Shown here: piece by piece, positions 42,640 to 55,184 of the stretch | Numbering within the stretch: the first letter of the stretch is position 1 | Layout: every line of letters begins with the position of its first letter | IMG/VR virus record: IMGVR_UViG_3300035698_017726 | Coordinates: 50,833-114,832 of that record | DNA: 64,000 nt | Strand: one strand, 5' to 3' | From: a virus | Notes under the pieces: generated by a model | What the model saw: only the letters and a program-made list of their open reading frames with translations | What the model was told of the DNA's origin: nothing | Database searches by the model: none | Position numbers and translations under genes: made by a program

Positions 42640-42658
42640 AGTATCTCCCTTGTGAAGT

Positions 42659-42735
42659 TGGTGGCTGCAGGCAGAATTGAACTGCCGACCTGCGGGGTAT
42701 GAGTCCGCCGCTCTATCCAACTGAGCTACACAGCC
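42659..42735 (-). tRNA. tRNA-Met(CAT), elongator
   Basis: GGCT start, loop CT-CAT-AC. Confidence 0.85.
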
Positions 42736-43445
42736 GTGGTTTCCGCATGCCACATGACCTTCTGGCCACAGCACACAAACTTGGTACCTTGTATGTTCCA
42801 GGAGCCCAGGAGGTGATGATGTCCGAACGCCCACAGCCTTGGTACGTGGCTGGAGTTCCTGACGACATTATCGAACATCCGGGGTACTGGTTCTGATTCT
42901 CTGCTGGAGTTGTTGTACTTCAGCGGTACTATCAGTGGGCAGTCATGGGTGACGACTACTTCTGGCTTCAGTTTGTCGTAGAGCTGAAAGAACTCATCCC
43001 ACTCTGCATGGGTAGGTTGCTCATACGCCCACCAGCTTTGCCCCTCGACTCTGTACATCTTGTCGATGCTTCTGGCTCCTCCGAAGAAGAGATGAGAGAC
43101 GCCACAGATATACAGTGGCGTAGGGCGCGTAGCCCATTCACATCCGGGAGCGAGTACCACGAGACCGTCATCTTCCTCTGGCGGTTTCTGCTGTTCATCT
43201 CTGAGTCTGCACCAGACGTCGTAGTTTTCGTGATTGCCTCCGCATGTAGTCCAGGTTGGGCCGTCTCGACCTTGCCGAGCTCGCTTGATGAAGTACCTCT
43301 TCAGCTTGTCGGAGGGATTCCAGTGGATGCCTAGGTCCCCGACCTGAACGATGTGCTTCACTCCTTCTCGGGTAGCGAGCTCATCGATCTTTGCCAGGTC
43401 CTCTATGTCCCCATGAATGTCCCCCACGTACCAGATGGTTTCCAT
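42726..43445 (-). CDS. Metallophosphoesterase (calcineurin-like)
   Basis: GDIHG, GD, GNHE, THD, GHHH. Confidence 0.9.
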   Translation of the reverse strand: METIWYVGDIHGDIEDLAKIDELATREGVKHIVQVGDLGIHWNPSDKLKRYFIKRARQGRDGPTWTTCGGNHENYDVWCRLRDEQQKPPEEDDGLVVLAPGCEWATRPTPLYICGVSHLFFGGARSIDKMYRVEGQSWWAYEQPTHAEWDEFFQLYDKLKPEVVVTHDCPLIVPLKYNNSSRESEPVPRMFDNVVRNSSHVPRLWAFGHHHLLGSWNIQGTKFVCCGQKVMWHAETTAV

Positions 43446-43459
43446 TGTCCGCTCCTAAA

Positions 43460-43534
43460 TGGTTGGGGTGGTAGGATTCGAACCCACGAATAGCGGGACC
43501 AAAACCCGCCGGCTTACCACTTGCCGACACCCCA
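43460..43534 (-). tRNA. tRNA-Gln(TTG)
   Basis: Loop TT-TTG-GT, U1-A72. Confidence 0.9.
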
Positions 43535-43541
43535 AAAGTAA

Positions 43542-43701
43542 AGTCTCCCGCGACCAGTGTGCGTCTTGCCTAAGGACGCGAGAGCAGCAGTTCTCCAGGC
43601 CCTACTCCGGACATAGGACGAGGTCCGTCGTGCCGCTTCGCTTGTGTCCGCTCTTTCAAGGATGGCTGCATCGGCCTACCTCCTCGCCGCAGACGGAGAC
43701 T
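43542..43701 (-). ncRNA. Structured ncRNA resembling the 23S rRNA GTPase-associated centre (H42-H44)
   Basis: Terminal stem AGTCTCC/GGAGACT; core GCGAGGAGGTAGGC-CGATGCA-GCCATCCTTGAAAGAG...CACTGGTCG. Confidence 0.6.
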
Positions 43702-43702
43702 A

Positions 43703-43778
43703 TGGTGATCCCAGGGGGAATTGAACCCACCATTGTCGAGATGAAAGCCCGATGTCCTGTCCGTTAGACGATGGGACC
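43703..43778 (-). tRNA. tRNA-Glu(TTC)
   Basis: Loop CT-TTC-AT. Confidence 0.9.
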
Positions 43779-43785
43779 ACAGTTC

Positions 43786-44049
43786 TTATGTCTGTTTCGA
43801 CGCGCCGATGAAGTCCTTGAGGATCTCAGCGTGCGTCTTCTCCTTGCTGAAGTTGGGCAGCTTCCGGATGTCGAACTCTTGTAGGGAGTTCACGCCTTCT
43901 GGGTCATCTGTGTAGAACCATATCGAAGGCCACTGCTGTGCCGAGTGGTAGATCGGGGCATGTCCCCGGAGGCTCACTGCCATCTCCGGCTTCTCCGGCT
44001 TCTTGTATGGGATCTGTTTGCCTCGGTAGCTCAAGCTGTACCTCGTCAT
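43786..44049 (-). CDS. Hypothetical protein
   Basis: 87-aa ORF. Confidence 0.45.
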   Translation of the reverse strand: MTRYSLSYRGKQIPYKKPEKPEMAVSLRGHAPIYHSAQQWPSIWFYTDDPEGVNSLQEFDIRKLPNFSKEKTHAEILKDFIGASKQT

Positions 44050-44178
44050 GGATGATGTTGAGTAGGCTGTGCTCCCTGCCTACGCGTTCTACTAAGCCAG
44101 CGAGCTCGAGGTCGCTGATGGTGGATGCTGCCAGGCTCTGGGGAGCCCAATAGACTCTGTTCCCCTTGCTGTGGATGA

Positions 44179-44367
44179 TCACAGGTTCACCTTTCTCGGC
44201 GCCTTGTTGGGGTGAATCTGCTGCAGATTGAAGTTGATGTCGTCGCTGAGTCCCCACGCTCCAGCCAGCGCTGCCTTGACGCCTCTGGCGATCATCCTGG
44301 CCGCTACGTCATCTACCGCTGGGAACCTAAAGCGTACGCTCAGGAGGTAGGATCTTTTGCCGGACAT
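44179..44367 (-). CDS. Hypothetical protein
   Basis: 62-aa ORF with RBS. Confidence 0.4.
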   Translation of the reverse strand: MSGKRSYLLSVRFRFPAVDDVAARMIARGVKAALAGAWGLSDDINFNLQQIHPNKAPRKVNL

Positions 44368-44540
44368 ATAGTCAGCCTCTCCTGCAGTGCTTGGTCTAGG
44401 AGTTCCTCGGACAGCCCCATAACCAGTACCAGTTTCCGGAGGATGATGTTCTGCCTCCTGAGGTCGGGCACATAGCTGAAGTCCCCTGGGAACTGGTCTC
44501 CGTTGTAGACTTCCTCGAACTCTTCTTCAGTGACTATCAT
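44340..44540 (-). CDS. Hypothetical protein
   Basis: GGGAGAG RBS, 66 aa. Confidence 0.45.
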   Translation of the reverse strand: MIVTEEEFEEVYNGDQFPGDFSYVPDLRRQNIILRKLVLVMGLSEELLDQALQERLTICPAKDPTS

Positions 44541-44558
44541 GTTCTCTCCCGTAAATAA

Positions 44559-44635
44559 TGGCACCCCAGAGAGGACTTGAACCTCTGGCCTACTGATTAG
44601 GAATCAGTTGCTCTATCCAACTGAGCTACTGGGGC
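44559..44635 (-). tRNA. tRNA-Arg(CCT)
   Basis: Loop TT-CCT-AA. Confidence 0.93.
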
Positions 44636-44644
44636 ACACTGTCC

Positions 44645-44857
44645 TTATGACAGGTCTTCTTCCCCCTCGCTGTCGAGCTCTACGTTGTCGTAGCAGAACT
44701 CGAGGCCCTCAGCGAGGTGAAAGGCATCCGCCTTGCGACGGGCTATCCGGAGCATCTTCCGCCTTGCGGAGGAACCGGGGGGTGGAGCACAGCATGGACA
44801 TTTCATTCCACCTGGGCCAGTGAGGATTAGCTTCTTAGCTACGTCATAGTTCGTCAT
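44645..44857 (-). CDS. Small hypothetical protein (GPGG.KCPCC motif)
   Basis: 70-aa ORF. Confidence 0.5.
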   Translation of the reverse strand: MTNYDVAKKLILTGPGGMKCPCCAPPPGSSARRKMLRIARRKADAFHLAEGLEFCYDNVELDSEGEEDLS

Positions 44858-44927
44858 GTTAGGTATTACCGTCGGTAGGCGGAAGTGCCTTCAAAGTCGG
44901 TAAAAGTACTGATGCACCCTCATGATT

Positions 44928-45425
44928 TCATTCTCCCGTATCTTCCTCCACTTCTTGTGGAGGGAGTCTCATGATTAGCGGCCTTGGAAGCATGATAGAA
45001 GGATAAGTCTCTTCATGCATCGTGCCAGTATCCACGGGGACCACAAAGTCAGGCGCTGGAGTTGGTGCCGGTGTCGATTCGGGCTGGGGAGCGGACCAAG
45101 CTGGTTGAGCTGCTGTCGTTGATGGCGACGAGCCTATCGCGGGTATGACAGGAGCTTCCACTGTTTCCACTGCCTCTGCCGGAACGTCCATCGGTATGCC
45201 CTCCGTAGAGCCTCCGAAGACCCCGAAGAAGTCGAGTTTCATACTGATGCCGAGCACTCCGGCAAAGAGAAGGAAGAGTCCACCTAAGACGCAGGCAAAG
45301 AGCCTGATCGGGGACTTCTTCTCTTGCGAAGAGTTCGACTGCTGTTCTTTGATGACGTCCAGAAGCTCCCGTACTGGGTCGTGTCCCTCACTGTGGGCTT
45401 CTGGGTCTTTGATATCCTTAGGCAT
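44928..45425 (-). CDS. Membrane protein with Pro/Thr-rich tail
   Basis: AAGGAGG RBS; single transmembrane helix. Confidence 0.6.
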   Translation of the reverse strand: MPKDIKDPEAHSEGHDPVRELLDVIKEQQSNSSQEKKSPIRLFACVLGGLFLLFAGVLGISMKLDFFGVFGGSTEGIPMDVPAEAVETVEAPVIPAIGSSPSTTAAQPAWSAPQPESTPAPTPAPDFVVPVDTGTMHEETYPSIMLPRPLIMRLPPQEVEEDTGE

Positions 45426-45452
45426 GATACCTCCTTGAAGGAGTATATCTGA

Positions 45453-45529
45453 TGGTCCGGGTAACAGGACTTGAACCTGTGGCCTCCTGCTCCCGAAGCA
45501 GGCGCTCTACCTGACTGAGCTACACCCGG
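45453..45529 (-). tRNA. tRNA-Pro(CGG)
   Basis: Loop TT-CGG-GA. Confidence 0.92.
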
Positions 45530-45532
45530 AAA

Positions 45533-45610
45533 TGGTTGAGACGCTAGGATTCGAACCTAGGAATAACGGGATCAGAACCCGCTGGCTTAACCGGACTTGC
45601 CTACGTCTCA
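45533..45610 (-). tRNA. tRNA-Gln(CTG)
   Basis: Loop TT-CTG-AT. Confidence 0.9.
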
Positions 45611-45640
45611 ATAATGGTCCTTACCTCTCAAAGCCTAAGA

Positions 45641-45717
45641 TGGTGGGACTGAGTAGATTTGAACTACCGACTTCCTGCTTATCAGGCAAGCGCTCTAACC
45701 AACTGAGCTACAGTCCC
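45641..45717 (-). tRNA. tRNA-Ile(GAT)
   Basis: Loop CT-GAT-AA. Confidence 0.93.
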
Positions 45718-45776
45718 GAGTTGCCGGGGTTTAAGGTCCTTTGCCGGAAGGACATAGCACAGGTTTGACGCTGTGA

Positions 45777-45854
45777 TGGGGTGAGTAGGGGGATTCGAAC
45801 CCCTCAGCCTCTCGGACCACAACCGAGCGCTCTACCTAATGAGCTTTACCCACC
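45777..45854 (-). tRNA. tRNA-His(GTG)
   Basis: Loop TT-GTG-GT, G-1:C73. Confidence 0.9.
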
Positions 45855-45862
45855 ATAGTTAA

Positions 45863-45937
45863 AGGATGACCGGTAGGTTTCGAAGCCTACATTGTACCGG
45901 CGACGGCCGGGTGCTTTGCGCTATTAAGCTACGGTCA
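45863..45937 (-). pseudogene. Degenerate tRNA-like element (4-nt anticodon loop CGTC)
   Basis: TGACCG/CGGTCA, D stem GCTT/AAGC, CCGGC/GCCGG, GTAGG/CCTAC; no CCA. Confidence 0.5.
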
Positions 45938-45938
45938 A

Positions 45939-46014
45939 TGGCTGGACCTCTCGGACTTGAACCGAGGACAAACGGATTAACAGTCCGCTACTCTGCCAAC
46001 TGAGTTAAGGTCCA
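45939..46014 (-). tRNA. tRNA-Asn(GTT)
   Basis: Loop CT-GTT-AA, G73. Confidence 0.92.
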
Positions 46015-46027
46015 ACAAGAAAAGGGA

Positions 46028-46194
46028 TGAGGGAAACACGAGTTACGTACACGGCATTTGGCGTTGCGGAGGCACGAACGCTAATGTTCTCCGTGTACTC
46101 AGTAGCGGCAGGAAACTTTGGCCTCTCTGGCGCCCTGCTTCGCTCTTTGTTTACTCGCGCTCTTTACTCGGGGCTGCATACCCAAAGTCCCTCA
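46028..46194 (-). ncRNA. Unknown multi-stem structured RNA candidate
   Basis: TGAGGGA/TCCCTCA closing stem, GCGAGT/ACTCGT, GTACACGG/CCGTGTAC, GCAGG/CCTGC; lies between tRNAs. Confidence 0.45.
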
Positions 46195-46195
46195 A

Positions 46196-46272
46196 TGGTA
46201 CTCCCGACGGGACTCGAACCCGCAGCCTTCGGCGTGAGAGGCCGACGATCTAGCCGATTAATCTACAGGAGC
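46196..46272 (-). tRNA. tRNA-Glu(CTC)
   Basis: Loop CT-CTC-AC. Confidence 0.9.
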
Positions 46273-46279
46273 ACGCTGT

Positions 46280-47050
46280 CTATCCTTCGAGCAGTTTCAC
46301 TCTTCCCTGGAGTGCGCCCGCTACGGAGGCGAGGTGGGCCTGGAGCTCGGAGCTCGAGGTCAGCGCCTGCTTGGTGAGCTCGACGGTGACAACCCTGGAG
46401 ATCTCATCTGGGTCGTCGATGAGCTTGTTCAGTTTGCTTTTCTTCGTGAAGAGCTCTTCGAGGTGCTCGGTTCTCCAGTCGATGAGCGCCTGGGCCTCTT
46501 TTTGCTCTTCCGGTGTGACGGGCATCTTGAGCGAGCGAAGAACGCACTCAGGCAGCAAGGCCCCGAGATGAGGGACGGTCACGTTTTCGTCCTCGTCCTC
46601 GCCCTCTATCTCGCTGATAGAGATCGTCCATACCTTCGGAATTCCCCACCTCAGCCCATCGCTGATATGTCTTCTGTGGGTCCCGAAGGTGTGAACGAAC
46701 CAGTACTGGGGCCCAACGTAGTACCTGTTGTCGTCGTCCTGGTCCACGTACGAGGTACAGAGTGCGCGCTCCATGTTCGTGGTCCAGGTAGGAGTCTTGA
46801 ACTTCTTCTCGATGGAGAGGGACAAGACAACGGTGTAGGCTTTGATCAGATCGTTGATGGGGCCACGGTACTCCTCGTCAGCCCGATTCTTGAGCTTCTT
46901 CATGAGGGCCCTGATGCGGTTGAACAGCTCCCTGTCTTTCACATCGATCTGAGCTTTGACGTCGACGAGCTCAGCTTTGAGCTGAATCATGTACTGGTCG
47001 GCCAGTAAAGTCGCTACATCGCTATTGCTGATGACAATCTTCGTGTCCAT
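46280..47050 (-). CDS. Hypothetical coiled-coil protein
   Basis: 256-aa ORF. Confidence 0.6.
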   Translation of the reverse strand: MDTKIVISNSDVATLLADQYMIQLKAELVDVKAQIDVKDRELFNRIRALMKKLKNRADEEYRGPINDLIKAYTVVLSLSIEKKFKTPTWTTNMERALCTSYVDQDDDNRYYVGPQYWFVHTFGTHRRHISDGLRWGIPKVWTISISEIEGEDEDENVTVPHLGALLPECVLRSLKMPVTPEEQKEAQALIDWRTEHLEELFTKKSKLNKLIDDPDEISRVVTVELTKQALTSSSELQAHLASVAGALQGRVKLLEG

Positions 47051-47839
47051 TTATCGGTTTCTCCGGCGAGCCTTACGGTCGCCCGGTGAGTGTGTTCTGA
47101 AGCTGTGCTTGTCGAAGCCCTTGGAGTGCGCTTTCAGCTCATCGCTGATGGGCGCTGGAGGGTCGACCTGCCTAGCCATGTTGTTTCCGAGGAACATGTC
47201 CAGTTCCTGGAAGGTAGCCCACGTATCCACCTCTGCTTGGAACCCCAGCGGCTTGAGCGGAGGGTTCAGGATGATGGTGGGCCCACTGTGGTCACGGCTT
47301 ACCTGGATTACGGGCGCTTCAAACTCCCTGAAGAGCTCGTCAGGTACTTGCTGTGACTGATACTTCTCTACCCATCTGTTCCAGCCCGCAGCGTTGAAAG
47401 GGTACTCCCTCCAGCTGTTGGGCGTCTTTTCTCTCTGACTTTCGAACCACTTCTTACCCAGTGGCCGACGTCCCCATCGGTTGACCAGTCCGTGTTCCTG
47501 GGCGGTGTCGAGGATGAGCTCCGGTGAGGCACTGGCCAAAGAGATAGGAGTCTGTCTGCAGTCTACTTCCTGGTTGGCCTCGAAGGAGTACCAGCCGTAG
47601 ATTCTGCCGCAGAAGAGGACCAGTCTCCGTCTACACACTCCGGTCAGGTCGTTGGGGAATCCCGGCATAGCGCCGAACATGTCGTGGTAGGGCTTGAGCA
47701 TTGGCCAAATCTTCCGGAGGGCCGGGCCATCATTGGCGTCGCCAGCGCTGATGATTTTCTTGTGTCTCAGGTACACCAGCCGGTCAGTGGGGTCCTGGCA
47801 TCCGTCGTAGAAGTCTCTGTGCTTGCTAATGATCCTCAT
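47051..47839 (-). CDS. Phage-type hypothetical protein
   Basis: MRIISK.RDFYDG start, KGFDK.SFR end. Confidence 0.65.
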   Translation of the reverse strand: MRIISKHRDFYDGCQDPTDRLVYLRHKKIISAGDANDGPALRKIWPMLKPYHDMFGAMPGFPNDLTGVCRRRLVLFCGRIYGWYSFEANQEVDCRQTPISLASASPELILDTAQEHGLVNRWGRRPLGKKWFESQREKTPNSWREYPFNAAGWNRWVEKYQSQQVPDELFREFEAPVIQVSRDHSGPTIILNPPLKPLGFQAEVDTWATFQELDMFLGNNMARQVDPPAPISDELKAHSKGFDKHSFRTHSPGDRKARRRNR

Positions 47840-47854
47840 GCTGTCCTCATTGAA

Positions 47855-47930
47855 TGGTCGGGGTGACTGGATTCGAACCAGCGACCCCCTGCTCCCAAAG
47901 CAGGTGCGCTACCAACTGCGCCACACCCCG
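47855..47930 (-). tRNA. tRNA-Pro(TGG)
   Basis: Loop TT-TGG-GA. Confidence 0.94.
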
Positions 47931-48148
47931 ACAAAGTGCAGGAGATGAAGAACCTTTTCAGGCAGGTTCTCTTTTCGCCTTCTCCTGCAGAAGGCTAGCC
48001 CAACCGCTACGCTCCCTATGATCCAATGGCAGACCAATGTCGAACATCTTGCGATGCACCTACGACATACAGAAGCTCGAAAGCGAAGAATGGGTCTTGA
48101 AGGAGTGAGCTTCTGCTCGACCACGCAGCAACGCTCCGCGACGAACTG

Positions 48149-48225
48149 TGGTGAGACGACCCGGAATCGAACCGGGGACCCACGGCTTAAAAGGCCGGTG
48201 CTACTACCAACTGAGCTATCGTCCC
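48149..48225 (-). tRNA. tRNA-Lys(TTT)
   Basis: Loop CT-TTT-AA. Confidence 0.9.
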
Positions 48226-48229
48226 TAAA

Positions 48230-48451
48230 TGGTGGAACCGCTCGGACTCGAACCGAGAACCTCTACAACCAAATTGTATCGCTCTACCTGTCGCCCCTAC
48301 TGCTTTGGGGTTTGCCAAAATTCAGTGCTCCTCTCCAGCCCCCGCCACGGTATATGTGGTTTGGGTGCGGGTTCGGTCACGATCTCCCTCATGGCCAAAG
48401 GGTAACTTATTCGTTGGTAGCAGTAGAGGACTGTGATTGAGCTACGGTCCC
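48230..48451 (-). ncRNA. tRNA-like RNA with ~145-nt structured D-loop insertion and G3.U70 acceptor
   Basis: GGGACCG-TA-GCTC-AA[insert]GGTA-GAGC...CTCGG-TTCGAGT-CCGAG-CGGTTCC-ACCA. Confidence 0.7.
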
Positions 48452-48462
48452 AAAAGTGAAAA

Positions 48463-48542
48463 TGGCGAAGCGTACGGGATTCGAACCCGTCTGAATGTCC
48501 GGCGTGACAGGCCGGTGTCCACACCTAGCAGACCCACGCTCC
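48463..48542 (-). tRNA. tRNA-Asp(GTC)
   Basis: Loop CT-GTC-AC, G73. Confidence 0.88.
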
Positions 48543-48553
48543 TGAATAAAGGG

Positions 48554-48627
48554 TACCCCCTCTCGGGATCGAACCGAGGACCTATGGATTAAGAGTCCAG
48601 CGCTCTAGCCAGCTGAGCTAAGGGGGC
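48554..48627 (-). tRNA. tRNA-Lys(CTT)
   Basis: Loop CT-CTT-AA; 3' end ACCC. Confidence 0.88.
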
Positions 48628-48694
48628 ACAAATAGGCCAAATGTTTGAAGAGCAAAGCTCTCCTTGCATCCTTCTTATGTCAGTTCTCCCTGAA

Positions 48695-48871
48695 CTATTC
48701 TTCGAGCTCCACCTCTAGTTCTCCGGGGTCGTCAGAGCTATCGTCTTTGGCGTCTAAGTCGAAGGTCTCAACCTGCTCTTCCGCCACGATCTTTGCTTCT
48801 GCCTGAGTATCGGCCTCGACGTCGAAGTTTACGCGCTGTTCTCTTCGGTACTGACATCGATATGTATGCAT
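48695..48871 (-). CDS. Small acidic hypothetical protein
   Basis: 58 aa MHTYRCQYRREQRVNFDVEADTQAEAK...; GGGAGAG RBS. Confidence 0.5.
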   Translation of the reverse strand: MHTYRCQYRREQRVNFDVEADTQAEAKIVAEEQVETFDLDAKDDSSDDPGELEVELEE

Positions 48872-48887
48872 AGTCTCTCCCTTTAAG

Positions 48888-48964
48888 TGGCGACCCCAGC
48901 AGGATTCGAACCTGCGGCCTTACGCTCCGGAGGCGTACGCTCTATCCAGTTGAGCTATGGGGCC
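48888..48964 (-). tRNA. tRNA-Arg(CCG)
   Basis: Loop CT-CCG-GA. Confidence 0.93.
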
Positions 48965-49029
48965 GGAGTGGGAGCTCGCGATGGCCTATTAAGGCACGCT
49001 CCCAACCAATCATATTCGTGTTTCAAAGA

Positions 49030-49106
49030 TGGCATGCCCGGAGGGAGTCGAACCCACGACAACTCGGTTCGTAGCCGAGTGCTCTGTCCAGCTGAGCTAC
49101 GGGCAC
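49030..49106 (-). tRNA. tRNA-Arg(ACG)
   Basis: Loop CT-ACG-AA. Confidence 0.92.
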
Positions 49107-49117
49107 ACATACTTCTC

Positions 49118-49180
49118 AAAGAAAAAGGCCCCAGGAGAAAACTCCTGGGGCCTTTTAGCGTCGTCCTAAAGGACCCCAGG
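49118..49180 (-). terminator. Attenuator B: intrinsic terminator with competing antiterminator
   Basis: Terminator AAAAGGCCCCAGGAG-TTTT-CTCCTGGGGCC-TTTTTCTTT; CCTGGGGTCCTTTAG right after the leader stop is complementary to its left arm. Confidence 0.85.
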
Positions 49181-49270
49181 TCAGCTCGGCTCGTCATTGC
49201 GCACGATACCTTCTTGCTGCCGCTTAGCTGCGGTTACATGAGGCATCGTGGTTGGTCTGACGTCGAGCAT
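49181..49270 (-). CDS. Leader peptide B (29 aa, MLDVRPTTMPHVTAAKRQQEGIVRNDEPS)
   Basis: GAGGA RBS; 26 distinct codons in 29, almost all cognate to downstream tRNAs. Confidence 0.8.
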   Translation of the reverse strand: MLDVRPTTMPHVTAAKRQQEGIVRNDEPS

Positions 49271-49300
49271 CTGCGGGGTGTTCCTCTTGGTGACTCTATG

Positions 49301-49329
49301 GTTGTATAGAATCCTGGGATTCATGTCAA
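49301..49329 (-). promoter_or_regulatory. Sigma70-like promoter of tRNA operon B
   Basis: TTGACA-17nt-TACAAC. Confidence 0.7.
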
Positions 49330-49348
49330 CCATTCTGCAAGAATTCTT

Positions 49349-49894
49349 CTAGGTGCTGATGCGAGGCCTTCGTTCGTCCTGGGTAATCTTCTCTCTACGC
49401 CTAGATGGTTGCGTGACCTCGTAGACACCAGGTGTTCGAACCAAGATGATCCTCGGCTGAGCTTCTACAGCCTCCATGAGGAGCGGCATCATCATGGCCA
49501 TAGGGAAGCCGTCGGTTTCGGTGCAGCCGAGAATAGGAAGCATGATCTTCCCGCCCAGCAGCTTGGGCATCATTCTCACCAGCTCTGTGAGCCCGAACTT
49601 GATGAGTCTAGAGGAGACGTAGCTTCTCCAAGAGAGATGGGGCTTGGCGTTATTCCTTTCCCGCGTAGGAAAGAGGATCAGCCTGCCGTCCTCCCACTCC
49701 ATCGGTACCGCATCTCCCATGAGCTGGCATTGCTGCCCGTACCATTGAGGGAGCTCTGGGAAGAGAGCAGCGGCCTGTGCTGCGATGGTCAGGCCGCCCA
49801 TGACAGCTTCTCCGCGTTTGTTCCACCCTGCATTCGTGGGAACTACGATCCAGTCTTCTGGGTACGCCATTCTCCAGATGTTGCCTTCAAGCAT
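49349..49894 (-). CDS. Macro-domain (ADP-ribose-binding)-like protein
   Basis: IVVPTN...G.AVMGG..IA.QAA..FP, ILFPT, LPILGC. Confidence 0.65.
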   Translation of the reverse strand: MLEGNIWRMAYPEDWIVVPTNAGWNKRGEAVMGGLTIAAQAAALFPELPQWYGQQCQLMGDAVPMEWEDGRLILFPTRERNNAKPHLSWRSYVSSRLIKFGLTELVRMMPKLLGGKIMLPILGCTETDGFPMAMMMPLLMEAVEAQPRIILVRTPGVYEVTQPSRRREKITQDERRPRIST

Positions 49895-49908
49895 GTGGCC
49901 TCGGAGGT

Positions 49909-50312
49909 AAAAAGGGAAGGGGTCCGGAAGCTATTGCCCATCGTCCGGACCCCAGTTTGTTTATCGCGATTTCAACGCCTCACGGCTTTCGTCTCGGTTT
50001 AAGTTGACCATGACCGCTCTTTCGCTGAGCTACCGGGCCATAATGGAGGCCCGGACGGGATTCAAACCCGTGACTGTCTTGTTTAATCCGAGCACTGTGA
50101 TTGAGGCGACACGACGAATACTCAACTTGTCAGAGTTAGCTTGAACTTCATTGCCGTCTGTCCGATGGGCCCGATGCTCTACCGTTGAGCTACCCCGGCA
50201 TAGAATGGTGCCGGGGGACGGAATTGAACTCGCCTACCTTCGGGAGTATGGTGGACAGATTTTTGTGGCGTCAGATTCAGGTTCAGTTTCAGCTTGTCTG
50301 ATACGTTGATTC
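49909..50312 (-). ncRNA. ~400-nt RNA with two circularly permuted tRNA modules, hexamer repeats and a terminator
   Basis: T arm-CCCCGGC-ACCA-ttctat-GCCGGGG-D arm; T arm-CCGGGCC-TCCA-ttat-GGCCCGG-D arm; ends in a GGGGTCCGGA/TCCGGACCCC hairpin plus T tract. Confidence 0.75.
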
Positions 50313-50313
50313 T

Positions 50314-51054
50314 CTAAGAAAGGATGAACTCGAAGAGGGGCTTACCGACAGCCTGGGCGGGGGCTGGGGAGCTGTTGGCCTCTTCTCTGGCGATGTGGAC
50401 AGCCTGGCGCAGCTTGTTGACCTTCTCCAGCATGGCCTTCTTCTTCGAGGCGCTCATGCAGCCAGAGAGGTTGGTCGTGACCCAAGTGCCTTCGATGATG
50501 TCCTCGGTGAGCTCAGTCCACTGGGCTGGGTGCTTCTCAGTGGCTTCGACGACTACGCGAGGGGTCTTCACCTTCTTGGACTTGTAGGTCTCGGTGGGCT
50601 TGCCCCGATACATCCGAGTACCGTCGTCGTACGCCCAAGGCTCCGAGGGGTCCAGCTCTGGGATGCGGGCCAGTACGCCGGCCATGTCCTTCAGCTGCTT
50701 CTCGAGGGAGAGCAGGAAAGGAACAGGGGCGTCCGCCAGGAGGATGACGCCATCCACTTCGACGCTGGCGAAAGCACCCATGTTGGCGAAGTCCCTGGTG
50801 GCTTCGGCATCCATCAGGTTGGTCCACTGAAGGACGCACTGGTCCAGTACGTCGTCGGTGCGCTTCTGCACCAGGATGTCCTTTTCCTGGTACTTGATGC
50901 CGTCTTCCTCTGCGGGCGTCCAGGCCTTGGTCTGCCCCTTGAAGAGGTCAGCCTTTGCCAGTGCCTTGTAGAGCTTGCTCAGCTCGGAGTTCGCTGCGGT
51001 CTTCACGTCCTTCGTGATGGCGATGACGTGAGAAAGTCTGCTTTTCTTGGCCAT
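50314..51054 (-). CDS. Conserved hypothetical protein (resembles the DUF7873-type family, from memory)
   Basis: VPFLLSLEKQL, EATEKHPAQ and AREEAN motifs. Confidence 0.65.
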   Translation of the reverse strand: MAKKSRLSHVIAITKDVKTAANSELSKLYKALAKADLFKGQTKAWTPAEEDGIKYQEKDILVQKRTDDVLDQCVLQWTNLMDAEATRDFANMGAFASVEVDGVILLADAPVPFLLSLEKQLKDMAGVLARIPELDPSEPWAYDDGTRMYRGKPTETYKSKKVKTPRVVVEATEKHPAQWTELTEDIIEGTWVTTNLSGCMSASKKKAMLEKVNKLRQAVHIAREEANSSPAPAQAVGKPLFEFILS

Positions 51055-51102
51055 GAAATGCTCCCTTATTTGTAGGCTAAGTACTCTACTTGTAGCCGGA
51101 AA

Positions 51103-51294
51103 TCATGGTTTTTTTACATCTTCAGGAATAGAGGCCGGAAGTTCGTCTAGCTGTTGCCGCTCATCTTCGACAGCTTTCCGCTCCTGAACTATCTGCTGCT
51201 TGAGGCTACCCTTAGCTCCATTGACCTTGTGGGGCTTGCACATAAGACAGCCTGAGCGTCTATTCTTCGGTCTACCGCGTTTATGGTGGCCCAT
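51103..51294 (-). CDS. Small basic protein (GCLMCKPHK motif)
   Basis: 63 aa with a CxxC..H pattern. Confidence 0.55.
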   Translation of the reverse strand: MGHHKRGRPKNRRSGCLMCKPHKVNGAKGSLKQQIVQERKAVEDERQQLDELPASIPEDVKKP

Positions 51295-51600
51295 TTATAT
51301 CCTGCAGAATCGAATACCGAAGTTCTTGCCTTTCTTCGTGAATGTCCATGTTCCTGTAACCAGTCCGTCCTTGAATAGATACATGACAGAGTCCAGATTA
51401 GAGAGGAACATCGTGAACTCTTTCTGGGTGAGCACGTCCTGGAAGACGGCGTAAGCCGCGCTCCGTCCTCGGTTGAACCTCAAGAATCGCAGAGTAGCGT
51501 CGAACTCGTAGATATCGATCCACTGCGAGCTGTTGTAGAGGCTCGGGTAGTGCTCTTGGTTCCCGTTCTTGTCGAAGGGTACTTTTCTGTCCCAGACCAT
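51295..51600 (-). CDS. Hypothetical protein
   Basis: RGRSAA and WTF.KKG.NFGI motifs. Confidence 0.55.
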   Translation of the reverse strand: MVWDRKVPFDKNGNQEHYPSLYNSSQWIDIYEFDATLRFLRFNRGRSAAYAVFQDVLTQKEFTMFLSNLDSVMYLFKDGLVTGTWTFTKKGKNFGIRFCRI

Positions 51601-51621
51601 TCTGGCTCCGATGGTAGTTGG

Positions 51622-51707
51622 TGGCGGAGGGAGAGGGAGTCGAACCCTCAAGGCTTGCGCTCGGCTGATTTCGAATCAACTGCAGTCACCTATCTGCTTG
51701 CCCCTCC
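51622..51707 (-). tRNA. tRNA-Ser(CGA)
   Basis: Loop TT-CGA-AA, long variable arm, G73. Confidence 0.9.
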
Positions 51708-51940
51708 ACATGCTTTCATCAGCTCTTCTATCTCCCTAAGGAACCTAGAGTCCAGAGCTGCCATAGTCTCGTCGGACATCATGTTCGTATAGGCAGCAGC
51801 GAACTTCTGGTTCTTCATGAAGTCTCTGCCGTCCAAGAGATCCTGCTTGGTGAAGACCAAGGGCTCGACGGTCCAGATAGGAAACTGCGGCCATGCTCTG
51901 ACCGACCCATCGTTCCAGGACCATCTCTCGACCATGTAGA

Positions 51941-52261
51941 TCATGGGTCCGGGATCGTGATCTGAGAGTTGTCCTTGTTACAGGGGTGGCGCAGAGCTTG
52001 GGCCATCAGAGCGATGATGTGGTCCTTAGCGAAGTCACTGACATCAGTGCTCCAGATAGGGGCGTCCATTGAGTCCTGTCCCTCTCTCATCTCTACTATA
52101 GGTCGTACCTCCCCAGTAGTTGCCCCACGTTTAGATAGGGCCAACACTACCCGGTAGATGTTGCAAAGACTGTCCCGTGGGGCGTCCAAGTCTATTTCTG
52201 CGATGACTCTGGGAAAGGTTGTGTCATCTGGTAGGGCGCAACCAATTTGTCCTGAGAACAT
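51941..52261 (-). CDS. Hypothetical protein
   Basis: 106-aa ORF, translationally coupled to neighbours. Confidence 0.45.
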   Translation of the reverse strand: MFSGQIGCALPDDTTFPRVIAEIDLDAPRDSLCNIYRVVLALSKRGATTGEVRPIVEMREGQDSMDAPIWSTDVSDFAKDHIIALMAQALRHPCNKDNSQITIPDP

Positions 52262-52545
52262 TACCAGGTCTCGTAGTCGGTGAAGTCCAACACTTTGCCG
52301 GATTGGAGATGGGTCGCGGTCTTGACGAGGCCTATCCCCGTGGGGACGAACATGAAGGCTACTCCCGCAATCCCTTTACCAGCGATGATTGATTCCTCAT
52401 CGCTGAGCTCCGCCCACCTCTTGACTCTTGCGCACTCTTCTGGCGTAAGCTCGAAGCGCACTCTCCAGGTTCCTTGGTGCGAGAAACAGGCACTTCCGTC
52501 GCTACTATCGTCTAGTTTGCTCTGTACAATTTTTTCGTCTTCCAC
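52261..52545 (-). CDS. Hypothetical protein
   Basis: AAGGAG RBS; F.PTGIG...LDFTDYE.W motif. Confidence 0.55.
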   Translation of the reverse strand: MEDEKIVQSKLDDSSDGSACFSHQGTWRVRFELTPEECARVKRWAELSDEESIIAGKGIAGVAFMFVPTGIGLVKTATHLQSGKVLDFTDYETW

Positions 52546-52558
52546 TTTCGCTCCTTGT

Positions 52559-52644
52559 TGGCGGAGAGCAGGGGAGTCGAACCCCTAAGGCTTTCGCTCG
52601 ACTGATTTCAAATCAGCTGCCGTCACCCATCGGCTTGGCTCTCC
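52559..52644 (-). tRNA. tRNA-Ser(TGA)
   Basis: Loop TT-TGA-AA, long variable arm. Confidence 0.9.
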
Positions 52645-52649
52645 AAGAT

Positions 52650-52733
52650 TGGTGCCTAGGAAGGGACTCGAACCCTCACGGCCGAAGCCACCCAGTTTTA
52701 AGCCAGGCATGTCTGCCATTCCATCACCTAGGC
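52650..52733 (-). tRNA. tRNA-Leu(TAA)
   Basis: Loop CT-TAA-AA. Confidence 0.9.
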
Positions 52734-52777
52734 AGTGTGATGTTTGTACTGTGTACCCATTATCTGGATACTGAATG

Positions 52778-52865
52778 TGGCGGAGAGTGAGGGATTCGAA
52801 CCCTCGTACCTTACGGCGCACCGCTTAGCAGGCGGGCCTCTTTGTCCTATCTCGAGCAACTCTCC
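52778..52865 (-). tRNA. tRNA-Ser(GCT)
   Basis: Loop CT-GCT-AA. Confidence 0.9.
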
Positions 52866-53167
52866 TAATTTCCGTCTTTTGGGAACTCTTCGACTACCCC
52901 TCCGATGGGGGTGCGGGTACCAAACATCTCCTCCATCTTGTCGTTGTCCACATACATCTTGGTGATGGTACCTGCGACGCCTCTTTTTCCTTCATCAAAG
53001 AGGATAACTGGTGCCTGTTCCCCGTTTCTTTTGTGCGCCTCAATCACAGCTTTGTCGTAGTAGTTCGTGCCCTTCATGCGGACAGGACCCATGTTCTTAG
53101 CCCTCTCTCCGGGGCAGACGATGTACCAGTGGTCCCCGCGTGCTTCGACGGTCCACTTCTTATCCAT
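52865..53167 (-). CDS. Hypothetical protein
   Basis: 100-aa ORF. Confidence 0.45.
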   Translation of the reverse strand: MDKKWTVEARGDHWYIVCPGERAKNMGPVRMKGTNYYDKAVIEAHKRNGEQAPVILFDEGKRGVAGTITKMYVDNDKMEEMFGTRTPIGGVVEEFPKDGN

Positions 53168-53296
53168 TGAGCTTCTCCAGCTCAGCGTCCTTGCGCATGA
53201 TGACCTCGGCTAGGTCTCTGATGGCGCTGTTGTACCTGTTCATGATTGCCGTCTCCATAGCAATTCTGTCGGCTACCCACAGCTACGGCCTATAAA

Positions 53297-53373
53297 TGGC
53301 ATGTCTGGGAGGAATTGAACCTCCAACCTTCGGATTTGGAATCCGGTGCTCTGCCTAATTGAGCTACAGACAT
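53297..53373 (-). tRNA. tRNA-Trp(CCA)
   Basis: Loop TT-CCA-AA, G73. Confidence 0.9.
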
Positions 53374-53379
53374 ACAATG

Positions 53380-53487
53380 TGGTGGAGAACAGAGGGACTC
53401 GAACTCCTCATTCACCGGCCAAGCTACCTCACAGGAAAACCTGGGTAGCTTCGCTACGTGCTCTTTCCGATTAGAAGGATGCTCCCC
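53380..53487 (-). ncRNA. Anticodon-less tRNA-like RNA with Ala-type acceptor (G3.U70)
   Basis: GGGGAGC/GTTCTCC-ACCA; TTCGAGT loop; long hairpin AAGCTACC-CAGG-TTTT-CCTG-GGTAGCTT replaces the anticodon arm. Confidence 0.65.
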
Positions 53488-53491
53488 ACAA

Positions 53492-53575
53492 TGGTGTGCA
53501 TGGAGGGACTTGAACCCTCATGTCCTAAGACACGAGGCCCTCGACCTCGCGCGTCTGCCATTCCGCCACACGCAC
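53492..53575 (-). tRNA. tRNA-Leu(GAG)
   Basis: Loop TC-GAG-GG (unusual C33), long variable arm. Confidence 0.85.
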
Positions 53576-53580
53576 ACAAA

Positions 53581-53778
53581 CTATCCAGGTACTGCGAACT
53601 TTCTTACGGTTCGCCTACCCAATTGGACCTCATCGCCAGGCTTTACGTCGGCCATGATGTCCTTCACTACCTTGCCATTGATCTTGACCCATCCCGAGGC
53701 CAACAGTCTGCGGGCCTGAGAATGGGACTGTACTACTCCGGCGTCACCCATGGCCTTGACGGCTTTGATGAACTCCAT
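53581..53778 (-). CDS. Stand-alone S4 RNA-binding domain (TyrRS C-terminal-like)
   Basis: GVVQSHSQARRLLASGWVKINGKVVKD...GDEVQLGRR; GGGAGAG RBS. Confidence 0.8.
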   Translation of the reverse strand: MEFIKAVKAMGDAGVVQSHSQARRLLASGWVKINGKVVKDIMADVKPGDEVQLGRRTVRKFAVPG

Positions 53779-53798
53779 AATCTCTCCCGTTGAAATGC

Positions 53799-53889
53799 TG
53801 CAGACCACCCACTTCGGAGTGCCCACTCGCCTATGTAGGAAGCCCGCCCCTTGCGGGACAGGGCGGGAGTTGAACCCGCATAGTCTGCA
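53799..53889 (-). ncRNA. Permuted tRNA-like RNA (YrlA/Y-RNA-like topology)
   Basis: TGCAGACT/GGTCTGCA closing stem, T arm GCGGG-TTCAACT-CCCGC, acceptor-like hairpin closed by GCAA. Confidence 0.55.
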
Positions 53890-53893
53890 TTGA

Positions 53894-53982
53894 TGGTGGC
53901 CATGGGGAGACTCGAACTCCCAAGGGGATGCATGCCCCACTGCGCCCTGAACGCAGCGCGTTTACCTTTTCGCCACATGGCC
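53894..53982 (-). tRNA. tRNA-Leu(CAG)
   Basis: Loop TT-CAG-GG. Confidence 0.9.
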
Positions 53983-53987
53983 TAAAA

Positions 53988-54071
53988 TGGTGCGCAGAGA
54001 GGGACTTGAACCCTCACACCCGAAGGCACCGGGTCCTAAACCCGGCGTGTCTGCCATTCCACCACCTGCGC
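53988..54071 (-). tRNA. tRNA-Leu(TAG)
   Basis: Loop TT-TAG-GA. Confidence 0.92.
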
Positions 54072-54187
54072 ATTTTGTCTCTTTCGCCGGCGACGATCCG
54101 GCTAAACACCGTCCCCGCCATCAAGGCTCGCAAACTCCCCGACCCGCCTGGCGTACACCCAAGGCGGCAGAAAGAGATCAGGCGATA

Positions 54188-54262
54188 TGGAGATGACGAT
54201 GGGAATTGAACCCACGCTAATGGGTTTTGCAAACCCATGCCTTACCGCTTGGCTACGTCATC
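54188..54262 (-). tRNA. tRNA-Cys(GCA)
   Basis: Loop TT-GCA-AA, U73. Confidence 0.9.
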
Positions 54263-54265
54263 CAA

Positions 54266-54341
54266 TGGTGGAGCTGGGGGGAATCGAACCCCCGACCCCC
54301 TGAATGCCATTCAGGTGCTCTCCCAACTGAGCTACAGTCCC
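54266..54341 (-). tRNA. tRNA-Ala(GGC)
   Basis: Loop AT-GGC-AT, G3.U70. Confidence 0.92.
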
Positions 54342-54430
54342 ACAATGCTAATTCAAACCTACTCAGTAACTATAGCCTGCTTTCGGTATACATCTATCTT
54401 GTGCCGTTTTGAGCAGGTCTTTTCAAGTAA

Positions 54431-54506
54431 TGGTGGTTAGGGGCGGAGTTGAACCGCCGACATAGGGATTTTCAGTCCCCCGTTCTACCAACTGAACTAC
54501 CCAACC
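54431..54506 (-). tRNA. tRNA-Phe(GAA)
   Basis: Loop CT-GAA-AA. Confidence 0.92.
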
Positions 54507-54653
54507 ACGGCGTCACCAAGGTGGCAGCAAGCCACCTATCTGCCTCACTCTTAGAGCTCTACTCAGGCCTCTTGGGGTCCGGGTAGAGACTCCTACTGGA
54601 GAGGAGATGGATATTTCTCCGCTCGAGAAGTCTATCAACATGTTTCTCCCCAA

Positions 54654-54739
54654 TGGCGGAGACGACAGGATTCGAACCTGCGGAGCTTTCACCCTCCTGC
54701 TTTCCAAGCAGGTGCCATAAGCCTCTCGACCACGTCTCC
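54654..54739 (-). tRNA. tRNA-Ser(GGA)
   Basis: Loop TT-GGA-AA, long variable arm. Confidence 0.92.
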
Positions 54740-54961
54740 TTATTGAAGGCTGAGCTGCCTGTGCCTTTCTTGCTCGTAAGCCATGAAGATCCCATCCAGT
54801 ACTGATGGGCACATCTCCAGTTGCTGCTCAGCTATCTTGAACTCGATATTCCCTGGTCCTCTGAAGTAGAGCTGGTCGGCGACCTTCTTCAGCATCCTGA
54901 CTCCCATCTGGTACTCTTCCAGAATGCTGTTCGTCCCTTCAACGGTGAGTTCAGAGGCCAT
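54740..54961 (-). CDS. Hypothetical protein
   Basis: AGGAG RBS, 73 aa. Confidence 0.5.
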   Translation of the reverse strand: MASELTVEGTNSILEEYQMGVRMLKKVADQLYFRGPGNIEFKIAEQQLEMCPSVLDGIFMAYEQERHRQLSLQ

Positions 54962-55002
54962 GGAATCTCCTAGAGCGTCCGTCCAGTCTACCGTGTAGCG
55001 GA

Positions 55003-55091
55003 TGGTGGGGGTAGAGGGAATCGAACCCACTCGGGACTTTAAGCCACCGGCTTTACAGGCCAGCCCGTCTTCCTTAGCGGTCTACACCCCC
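55003..55091 (-). tRNA. tRNA-Tyr(GTA)
   Basis: Loop CT-GTA-AA, long variable arm. Confidence 0.88.
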
Positions 55092-55099
55092 ACAGTAAA

Positions 55100-55184
55100 T
55101 GGTGCGCGAGGAGGGATTCGAACCCTCACGACTCTAGGCCACTGGAATTTGAACCCAGCGCGTCTGCCATTCCGCCACTCGCGC
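55100..55184 (-). tRNA. tRNA-Leu(CAA)
   Basis: Loop TT-CAA-AT, long variable arm. Confidence 0.9.

What the first reader, a model, noticed from the sequence alone, without database searches (positions are those of the whole stretch)
49909..51054. Conserved protein followed by a ~400-nt RNA with two circularly permuted, CCA-containing tRNA modules
Seen: directly after the stop of 50314-51054 the transcript has two modules ordered T arm, acceptor 3' strand + NCCA, 4-6 nt linker, acceptor 5' strand, D arm (about 50170-50245 and 50009-50081). Each sits at the tip of a longer stem (TCGGG/CCCGA plus GGACAGA/TCTGTCC; GTCATG/CAAGAC plus CTCGG/CCGAG). Neither has an anticodon loop, and the RNA ends in a terminator. 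Established: permuted tRNA-like domains occur in two-piece tmRNA and YrlA Y RNAs. Inference: RNase P and 3' trimming could yield a three-piece RNA with two chargeable ends (A73 and U73), probably forming an RNP with the adjacent protein, whose family I recall from Actinobacteria, cyanobacteria and phages.
Basis: partly seen in the sequence, partly recalled or inferred. Interest (0 to 1): 0.8.

Follow-up and report, generated by a model that had tools for sequence, protein, structure and literature searches.

The report
Double tRNA-mimic RNA beside DUF7873
Right after an unstudied phage protein gene (DUF7873) lies a roughly 400-base folded RNA carrying two back-to-front tRNA look-alikes; the same gene-RNA pair recurs in most Streptomyces relatives and in many phages, and I found no published description of it.

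Summary
On the minus strand, the DUF7873 gene (50314-51054) is followed by a ~400-nt RNA (49909-50313). It holds two circularly permuted tRNA-like modules: T arm, 7-bp acceptor stem closed by an NCCA-containing loop, D arm, and no anticodon loop.

It is not a local oddity. A covariance model of the module hits the same strand just downstream of DUF7873 in 77 of 80 bacterial loci, 73 of 80 viral loci and 9 of 9 cultured phages tested. Two modules are the norm.

A 44-sequence full-length alignment shows strong covariation: 92.5% of cells paired against 68.6% in shuffles, and 49 of 55 pairs with compensatory changes. This includes long-range helices that were not used to pick the sequences.

Rfam 15 has no family for it. 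Only YrlA (a Ro60-bound Y RNA) matches, below threshold (36.9 and 21.2 bits; cut-off 69). No Ro60 gene lies on the 114.8-kb contig (62% complete by CheckV), and 23 of 27 complete DUF7873 phage genomes lack one.

My reading is a YrlA-like tRNA mimic with a different, unknown protein partner. RNase P cleavage into CCA-ended pieces is plausible, because M. smegmatis YrlA does this, but it is untested. This scan noted the same RNA earlier on other DNA.

The parts
50314..51054 (-). DUF7873 protein gene (246 aa, stop TAG at 50314-50316)
   Evidence: Pfam PF25283, E 3.2e-74, 250 bits against a cut-off of 27. AlphaFold2 model pLDDT 91.8.
49909..50313 (-). Whole ~400-nt structured RNA, from the DUF7873 stop codon to the T-run after the terminal hairpin
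   Evidence: Fold z = -4.1. Aligns end to end with 43 homologous RNAs (A6). Covariation shown.
50297..50301 (-). 5' strand (UCAGA) of the long-range helix X that encloses module A; pairs with 50130-50134
   Evidence: Alignment columns 21-26 with 216-221: all 6 pairs show compensatory changes and 79.5% of cells are paired. The window's own 5' strand lies just outside the aligned stretch (A6 starts at 50299); it was read from the sequence, and the minimum-energy fold pairs it with 50130-50134.
50271..50296 (-). Tract of four 6-nt-periodic CUNA repeats (CAAGCUGAAACUGAACCUGAAUCUGA)
   Evidence: The U and A of each repeat are near-invariant across 44 sequences. Variation is not compensatory with the spacer copies, so this is a sequence motif, not a helix.
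50157..50259 (-). Module A: outer stem, anticodon-stem analogue, T arm, 7-bp acceptor stem closed by the loop ACCAUUCUAU, D arm
   Evidence: Model R1 54.9 bits. Rfam YrlA 21.2 bits, partial. Acceptor-stem columns 98.7% paired with 7 of 7 covarying.
50130..50134 (-). 3' strand (UCUGA) of helix X
50102..50108 (-). 5' strand (CGCCUCA) of the outer helix enclosing module B; pairs with 49976-49982
   Evidence: Columns 251-256 with 402-407: 91.6% paired, 6 of 6 pairs with compensatory changes.
49993..50092 (-). Module B: CUCGG/CCGAG stem, anticodon-stem analogue, T arm (UUUGAAU loop), 7-bp acceptor stem closed by the loop UCCAUUAU, D arm, then the conserved UUAAA motif
   Evidence: R1 67.5 bits. Rfam YrlA 36.9 bits over the full model, E 1.4e-6, below the 69-bit cut-off. 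The elbow pair G19:C56 is A19:U56 here and only here among 44 sequences.
49976..49982 (-). 3' strand (UGAGGCG) of the outer helix of module B
49909..49953 (-). Terminal hairpin (GGGGUCCGG / CCGGACCCC, 17-nt loop) followed by UUCCCUUUUU; a likely intrinsic terminator
   Evidence: Read from the sequence and present in the fold. A GC-rich terminal hairpin sits at this position in the relatives' tails as well.

Best explanation
The locus is a two-gene unit: the DUF7873 protein and, on the same transcript or directly behind it, a ~400-nt non-coding RNA.

The RNA is built from two YrlA-type tRNA mimics. Each keeps the tRNA elbow (T arm plus D arm) and a full 7-bp acceptor stem. Each is circularly permuted: the acceptor stem is closed by a loop that begins with discriminator-C(CA), and long-range helices replace the anticodon arm. 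A tract of 6-nt-periodic CUNA repeats, a UUAAA motif and a terminal hairpin complete the RNA.

Shown here: the structure, its covariation, and its near-obligate linkage to DUF7873 in bacteria and phages.

Inferred mechanism:
1. RNase P cuts 5' of each acceptor strand.
2. The upstream piece ends in, or is trimmed and repaired to, NCCA.
3. The three pieces stay together through the acceptor stems and the covarying long-range helices.
4. The resulting particle displays two tRNA-like elbows and CCA ends. It works with DUF7873 rather than Ro60 in tRNA or RNA surveillance.

The last point would explain why phages place the unit inside their tRNA gene arrays.
For: Structure:
- Both modules are reproduced by the minimum-energy fold and by model R1.
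- In the 44-sequence MAFFT alignment, 92.5% of cells are paired against 68.6% in shuffles and 41-48% in slid controls. 49 of 55 pairs show compensatory changes, including three long-range helices that played no part in choosing the sequences.
- T-loop U54, U55, C56, A58 and D-loop A14, G18, G19, A21 are near-invariant. The window carries the double change A19:U56.

Linkage:
- In 80 bacterial loci, all 140 hits at E < 1e-4 lie on the DUF7873 strand just downstream of the gene, covering 77 loci.
- 73 of 80 viral loci have a hit, as do 9 of 9 cultured phages, down to 25% protein identity.
- DUF7873 is a single-copy gene in 96 of 151 sampled Streptomycetaceae genomes.

Processing:
- Acceptor stems are always 7 bp. 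This is the feature to which Chen et al. attribute RNase P cleavage of M. smegmatis YrlA, which also gains CCA in vivo (PMC4201824).
- Loop position 2 is C in most modules and the full NCCA occurs in 46 of 192.
- 12 of 26 modules carry NCCA in phages whose own tRNA genes rarely encode CCA.
- In this phage, 38 of 42 tRNA genes and both modules encode CCA.

Independence from Ro60:
- No TROVE gene on the contig.
- 23 of 27 complete DUF7873 phage genomes lack one, as do 37 of 96 DUF7873-positive Streptomycetaceae.
- In three of the four Ro60 loci examined in genomes that also carry DUF7873, YrlA-like RNAs of their own lie directly upstream of Ro60, and none of the four has a DUF7873 gene nearby.
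Against: - There is no transcript, end-mapping, binding or charging datum. Processing and the RNA-protein complex are inferences.
- DUF7873 is near-neutral (pI 6.85; family median 6.3), not basic. It has no recognisable RNA-binding or catalytic fold.
- TROVE is somewhat enriched with DUF7873: 61% against 40% within Streptomycetaceae, odds ratio 2.4, p = 0.017, not corrected for relatedness. It lies within 3-11 kb in a few phages. A link to Ro60 is therefore not excluded.
- The contig is only 62% complete.
- Many bacterial loops are only 6-7 nt without CCA, so the loops could stay closed, as in Salmonella YrlA.
Confidence: 0.55

Rival explanations
1. It is an ordinary Ro60-dependent Y RNA, a divergent tandem YrlA/YrlB-like pair. 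It works with host or phage Ro60 (Rsr), and DUF7873 is an accessory or merely adjacent gene.
For: - The best Rfam match is YrlA, over the full model, E 1.4e-6.
- M. smegmatis has two Y RNAs cut from one precursor (PMC4201824).
- TROVE occurs in 31 of 50 and 4 of 5 DUF7873 genomes, against 8 of 201 in an Actinomycetota sample.
- 8 of 50 DUF7873 phage contigs carry TROVE, some within 3-11 kb.
Against: - The scores are about half the family cut-off.
- No TROVE gene lies within 4 kb or anywhere on the 114.8-kb contig.
- 23 of 27 complete DUF7873 phages and 37 of 96 Streptomycetaceae have DUF7873 without TROVE.
- Within the family the association is weak (odds ratio 2.4), so most of the phylum-level enrichment reflects shared ancestry.
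- Three of the four Ro60 loci examined in these genomes have separate YrlA-like RNAs of their own.
- The GNCGAAN0-1G motif thought to bind Rsr shows no positional preference: 45 matches scattered over 103 RNAs.
Confidence: 0.15
2. It is a cis-acting 3' element of the DUF7873 mRNA. The tRNA-like modules would serve as RNase P processing and stabilising signals that define or protect the mRNA 3' end, as the tRNA-like element does for MALAT1. It would have no function in trans.
For: - The RNA always lies directly downstream on the coding strand.
- In the window no promoter-like or terminator-like site separates the gene from the RNA.
- RNase P substrate features are conserved.
Against: - Two full modules, three covarying long-range helices, a conserved repeat tract and a terminal hairpin over ~400 nt are far more than a processing signal needs.
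- The RNA core is conserved across phyla at least as well as the protein.
- In some relatives a tRNA gene or ~500 nt separates gene and RNA (Keelan, PA-SR01).
Confidence: 0.1
3. It is a permuted or split tRNA gene, a two-piece tmRNA, or decayed tandem tRNA genes.
For: - The order T arm, acceptor, CCA, acceptor, D arm is also the order at the junction of two tandem tRNA genes and in permuted tmRNA genes.
- The window holds 44 tRNA genes.
- Tandem tRNA junctions give weak hits to the same models.
Against: - No anticodon loop, tag reading frame or tmRNA call.
- The two acceptor strands of each module are perfectly complementary and covary across 44 sequences, which neighbouring unrelated tRNAs would not do.
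- The unit is conserved in bacteria far from any tRNA array.
Confidence: 0.03

Closest known systems
YrlA (Y RNA-like A, Rfam RF02553), partner of bacterial and phage Ro60/Rsr; Chen et al. 2014 (PMC4201824), Wang et al. 2018 (bioRxiv 10.1101/312249)
   Same: - Circularly permuted tRNA mimic: T arm, loop-closed acceptor stem, D arm and a tRNA-like elbow.
- The RNA ends lie where the anticodon arm would be.
- The M. smegmatis member has a 7-bp acceptor stem, is cut by RNase P and receives CCA.
- Two Y RNAs can come from one precursor.
- The family also occurs in phages.
   Different: - Scores only 36.9 and 21.2 bits against the 69-bit cut-off.
- Not next to Ro60; instead next to DUF7873 in nearly every case.
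- Two modules sit in one ~400-nt RNA held by additional covarying long-range helices.
- A CUNA repeat tract is present, and there is no positioned GNCGAA motif.
- 7-bp acceptor stems and discriminator-C(CA) are the rule here, not the exception.
[quoted passage not shown] 2018; the original paper was not held
   Same: A tRNA-like RNA proposed to work with a protein other than Ro60, in an RNA-repair context.
   Different: - It is said to resemble an authentic tRNA and to sit beside a Band-7 protein and RtcB.
- No Band-7 or RtcB gene is on this contig.
- Rhodococcus phage NiceHouse has a Band-7-like gene two genes downstream of its DUF7873 RNA, which may or may not be connected.
Two-piece (permuted) tmRNA
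   Same: Permuted gene order, with the CCA-bearing acceptor strand ahead of the 5' acceptor strand. Pieces are held together by long helices after processing.
   Different: No tag reading frame, no pseudoknot series and no ARAGORN tmRNA call. There are two tRNA-like domains instead of one.

Membership tests
YrlA / bacterial Y RNA (RF02553) | Reaches Rfam's gathering score (69 bits) | tested here: not met
   36.9 bits (49988-50094) and 21.2 bits (50172-50242). No hit at the gathering threshold in the window and none at or above it in seven related loci scanned by E-value.
YrlA / bacterial Y RNA (RF02553) | Permuted tRNA-like domain: T arm, loop-closed acceptor stem, D arm, conserved elbow nucleotides | tested here: met
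YrlA / bacterial Y RNA (RF02553) | Encoded within about 4 kb of a Ro60 (TROVE) gene on the same strand (criterion of Chen et al. 2014) | tested here: not met
   No TROVE match anywhere on the 114.8-kb contig. The contig is 62% complete, so a distant Ro60 gene cannot be excluded, but none is nearby.
YrlA / bacterial Y RNA (RF02553) | GNCGAAN0-1G motif near the 5' end (putative Rsr contact) | tested here: not met
   The window has one match (GACGAAAG, 49986-49993), in the 3' tail and not at the 5' end. Across 103 related RNAs there are 45 matches spread over all segments.
YrlA / bacterial Y RNA (RF02553) | Bound by Ro60/Rsr | not testable with these tools
   Needs immunoprecipitation.
Canonical tRNA (RF00005) | Anticodon arm, and 5'/3' ends at the acceptor stem | tested here: not met
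   No ARAGORN call in 49909-50313. The only Rfam tRNA hit is sub-threshold (23.9 bits) and joins halves of the two modules across a 94-nt insert.
tmRNA (one- or two-piece) | Tag reading frame and a tmRNA call | tested here: not met
   ARAGORN reports no tmRNA and Rfam has no tmRNA hit.
DUF7873 (PF25283) | Full-length match above Pfam's cut-off | tested here: met
   250.2 bits against 27, residues 5-245 of 246.
DUF7873-linked double tRNA-mimic RNA (unnamed; defined here) | Two R1-type modules on the DUF7873 strand within about 700 nt downstream, enclosed by covarying long-range helices | tested here: met
   The window aligns end to end with 43 homologues.

The most novel reading that the evidence does not exclude
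After RNase P cleavage the RNA becomes a three-piece scaffold with two genuine CCA ends that are aminoacylated. Module A has A73 in 58 of 59 bacterial copies and often a tRNA-Leu-like D arm, and LeuRS ignores the anticodon. DUF7873 would then be an enzyme or adaptor that uses these charged, non-decoding tRNA mimics, for example for ribosome-independent aminoacyl transfer or as a sensor of charging status.
Probability: 0.1. Interest if true: 0.92.

Novelty: new variant of a known kind. Interest (0 to 1): 0.78.

Why it matters
Loop-closed, permuted tRNA mimics are described in bacteria only as Ro60-bound YrlA-type Y RNAs. Here the same kind of mimic is doubled, elaborated into a ~400-nt RNA, and tied to a different, wholly uncharacterised protein.

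It is a single-copy gene in about two thirds of sampled Streptomycetaceae genomes. It also sits in cultured phages of Gordonia, Rhodococcus, Arthrobacter, Rhizobium, Ralstonia, Klebsiella, Vibrio and a cyanobacterium, often inside the phage's tRNA gene array.

That points to an undescribed RNA-protein system touching tRNA biology. It can be tested now in tractable hosts and phages. In deposited genomes the RNA is currently unannotated, or mis-annotated as a small ORF or an odd tRNA.

Tried and rejected
- A first single-protein scan of viral contigs found nothing. An alignment query found 211 loci.
- My first regex scanner missed the window's own modules because of the UUUGA T loop. I rewrote it.
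- Fold searches of the DUF7873 model gave no convincing match. Foldseek against PDB and BFVD had no hit at E <= 0.001. VIA-align's best was Z 8.7 at rmsd 8.3, and otherwise coiled-coil hairpins.
- PDB sequence, PHROGs, PADLOC, NCBIfam and the ESM Atlas gave nothing beyond DUF7873 itself.
- Duplex-energy z-scores for the long-range helices were weak (median z -0.8 to -1.2). Column covariation settled the question instead.
- RNAalifold paired the CUNA repeats with spacer copies. I rejected this because the variation there is not compensatory.
- The link between CCA in the modules and CCA in the phage's own tRNA genes was not significant (p = 0.22).
- Burroughs and Aravind 2016 and the 2020 Ro60 review were not held.
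- A 2026 preprint on three tRNA-mimic families covers other RNAs: skipping-rope, DUF2693-FD and salivarius-1.
- No paper mentions DUF7873.

Full report
**What is at the coordinates.** The minus strand of 49700-51300 holds an ORF at 50314-51054. It is a full-length member of Pfam DUF7873 (PF25283, E 3.2e-74). From its stop codon to a T-run at 49909 runs about 400 nt without a credible ORF. Each of the two units runs T arm, 7-nt acceptor 3' strand, NCCA, a short linker (TTCTAT in module A, TTAT in module B), the perfectly complementary 7-nt acceptor 5' strand, TA, then a D arm. A GC-rich hairpin with a T-run closes the RNA. The minimum-energy fold reproduces both cloverleaf tops (z = -4.1). ARAGORN finds 44 canonical tRNAs in the window but nothing here, and no tmRNA.

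**Context.** The window is part of a 114.8-kb IMG/VR phage contig that CheckV rates 62% complete. The unit sits between two blocks of tRNA genes. Of 42 tRNA genes checked, 38 encode CCA after the discriminator, as both modules do.

**Known families.** At Rfam's gathering thresholds the window yields only tRNAs. With E-value reporting, module B matches YrlA (RF02553) over the whole model at 36.9 bits and module A partially at 21.2 bits. The family cut-off is 69. YrlA is the tRNA-mimicking Y RNA bound by bacterial Ro60 (Rsr). Chen et al. 2014 define it by three things: a position within about 4 kb of Ro60 on the same strand, a GNCGAAN0-1G motif near the 5' end, and the permuted tRNA-like domain. 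Only the last holds here. No TROVE match exists on the contig, and the one motif match lies in the 3' tail.

**Is it conserved?** An alignment of DUF7873 proteins retrieved 80 viral and 80 bacterial loci, out of 211 and at least 569 confirmed.
- A strict pattern scan found a module 200-350 nt downstream of the gene in 75 of 80 bacterial and 47 of 80 viral loci.
- I built covariance model R1 from 63 modules.
- In the bacterial loci all 140 hits at E < 1e-4 lie on the gene's strand just after the gene, in 77 of 80 loci. Nothing else in those 8.7-kb stretches scores.
- 73 of 80 viral loci have a hit at E < 1e-9.
- Two modules about 48 nt apart are the norm: 59 of 80 bacterial and 43 of 80 viral loci at these strict thresholds, and more with weaker hits.
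- Nine cultured phages carrying DUF7873 homologues all have the modules downstream: GodonK, NiceHouse, Racecar, Keelan, PA-SR01, RHph_TM16, phiRSL1, Kp24 and Vibrio K479, down to 25% protein identity.
- There the region is unannotated, carries a small doubtful ORF, or in Kp24 is annotated as an odd suppressor tRNA.

**Whole-RNA architecture.** A MAFFT alignment of 44 full-length RNAs including the window (A6) shows this order:
1. Helix X 5' strand.
2. A tract of 6-nt-periodic CUNA repeats.
3. Module A.
4. Further CUNA copies and the X 3' strand.
5. The outer helix 5' strands.
6. Module B.
7. An ACUGA and a UUAAA motif.
8. The outer helix 3' strands.
9. The terminal hairpin.

On a structure of 55 pairs, 92.5% of cells pair, against 68.6% in column shuffles and 41-48% when partners are slid by 1-3 columns. 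49 pairs show compensatory changes. The module helices were partly selected for by the search. Helix X and the two outer helices were not, and all of their main pairs covary. The CUNA repeats behave differently. Their U and A are near-invariant, but changes at the variable position are not matched in the copies they could pair with. I therefore read them as a single-stranded recognition motif rather than a helix.

The elbow nucleotides (U54, U55, C56, A58, A14, G18, G19, A21) are near-invariant in both modules. In the window's module B alone, C56 is U and G19 is A, a double change that keeps the tertiary pair.

**Processing.** M. smegmatis YrlA is the one YrlA with a 7-bp acceptor stem. RNase P cleaves it in vitro and in vivo, and the 5' fragment gains CCA (PMC4201824). 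Wang et al. 2018 note that most YrlAs are poor RNase P substrates. In the DUF7873-linked RNA the 7-bp stem is universal (98.7-99.7% of cells paired). The loop starts with a conserved discriminator: A in 58 of 59 bacterial module A copies, and U or G in module B. Position 2 is C in most modules, and the full NCCA occurs in 46 of 192 modules. NCCA appears in 12 of 26 modules from phages whose own tRNA genes seldom encode CCA. It is therefore not just a copy of local tRNA gene style. Cleavage at both loops would give three pieces held together by the acceptor stems, the anticodon-stem analogues, helix X and the outer helices. This is inference; no transcript data were available.

**Relation to Ro60.**
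- Four of five, and then 31 of 50, DUF7873 genomes carry TROVE, against 8 of 201 in an Actinomycetota sample.
- Within Streptomycetaceae, DUF7873 is in 96 and TROVE in 81 of 151 genomes. 59 have both, 37 have only DUF7873 and 22 have only TROVE. The odds ratio is 2.4 and p = 0.017, uncorrected for relatedness.
- The two genes are usually far apart. In three of the four Ro60 loci examined, YrlA-like RNAs lie directly upstream of Ro60, and none of the four has a DUF7873 gene nearby.
- Among phage contigs 8 of 50 have TROVE, and 4 of the 27 rated at least 90% complete.
- So Ro60 is not required, though a looser functional connection is not excluded.

**The protein.** The AlphaFold2 model is confident (pLDDT 91.8). 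It matches no solved or viral predicted structure convincingly and no other family library. The protein is near-neutral (pI 6.85). Invariant residues include N91, W140, T172, H175, P176, Q178 and N227, which would suit an enzyme or a specific binder equally. Neighbouring genes other than the RNA are not conserved. In phages, 36 of 80 loci have tRNA genes within 4 kb.

**Prior knowledge.** No held paper mentions DUF7873. The nearest ideas in print are YrlA with Ro60, and the predicted Band-7-associated tRNA of Burroughs and Aravind 2016. I could read the latter only through Wang et al. 2018. Earlier agents of this scan noted the same gene-RNA pair on other DNA many times. Those notes gave me the Burroughs and Aravind lead. 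They do not count as independent evidence.

**Verdict.** I class it as a new variant of the YrlA-type tRNA mimic with a different partner. The structure and the linkage are shown. RNase P processing is likely. The complex with DUF7873 and any aminoacylation remain to be tested.

Noticed in passing
window 49349-49894 (-): The 181-aa ORF just after the RNA's terminator has weak matches to the macrodomain part of antitoxin DarG (PADLOC E 0.0017; NCBIfam E 0.0025, far below its cut-off). Pfam and PHROGs find nothing.
   Followed up: partly
window 50271-50296 (-), with further copies near 50130-50150 and 50001-50005: Conserved 6-nt-periodic CUNA repeats: about four in the leader, then more after module A and after module B. 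The periodicity suggests binding sites for a repeating or oligomeric protein; I did not test this.
   Followed up: partly
window 49919-49953 (-) and the terminal hairpins of related loci: The loop of the terminal hairpin appears to share a motif across relatives (AUGGGUA, AUGGAUA, CGGAUAUG, CCGGCUA). The hairpin may therefore be more than a terminator. This is by eye only.
   Followed up: no
L183:1966-2045 (Klebsiella phage vB_KpM_FBKp24): A feature annotated 'tRNA-OTHER, tRNA-Sup-TTA' overlaps module B of the DUF7873-linked RNA (R1 hit 1994-2116, 51.7 bits). It is probably a mis-annotation.
   Followed up: partly
L179:3877-4749 (Rhodococcus phage NiceHouse): A Band-7-like membrane protein gene follows the DUF7873 RNA and a tRNA-Lys gene. 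This recalls the Band-7-associated tRNA predicted by Burroughs and Aravind.
   Followed up: no
G001:C1:2547354-2547452 and G002:C1:6296331-6296429 (Streptomyces genomes): A third locus in each genome scores 61.1 bits with module model R1. It is near neither DUF7873 nor TROVE. It could be another tRNA mimic or a junction of tandem identical tRNA genes.
   Followed up: no
G365:C4:4561415-4564681 (a Streptomycetaceae genome): Here a TROVE gene and DUF7873 lie about 2.4 kb apart on the same strand. This is the only close pairing I saw among the bacterial genomes.
   Followed up: no
window 36521-55184: 38 of 42 canonical tRNA genes of this phage encode CCA directly after the discriminator.
   Followed up: yes
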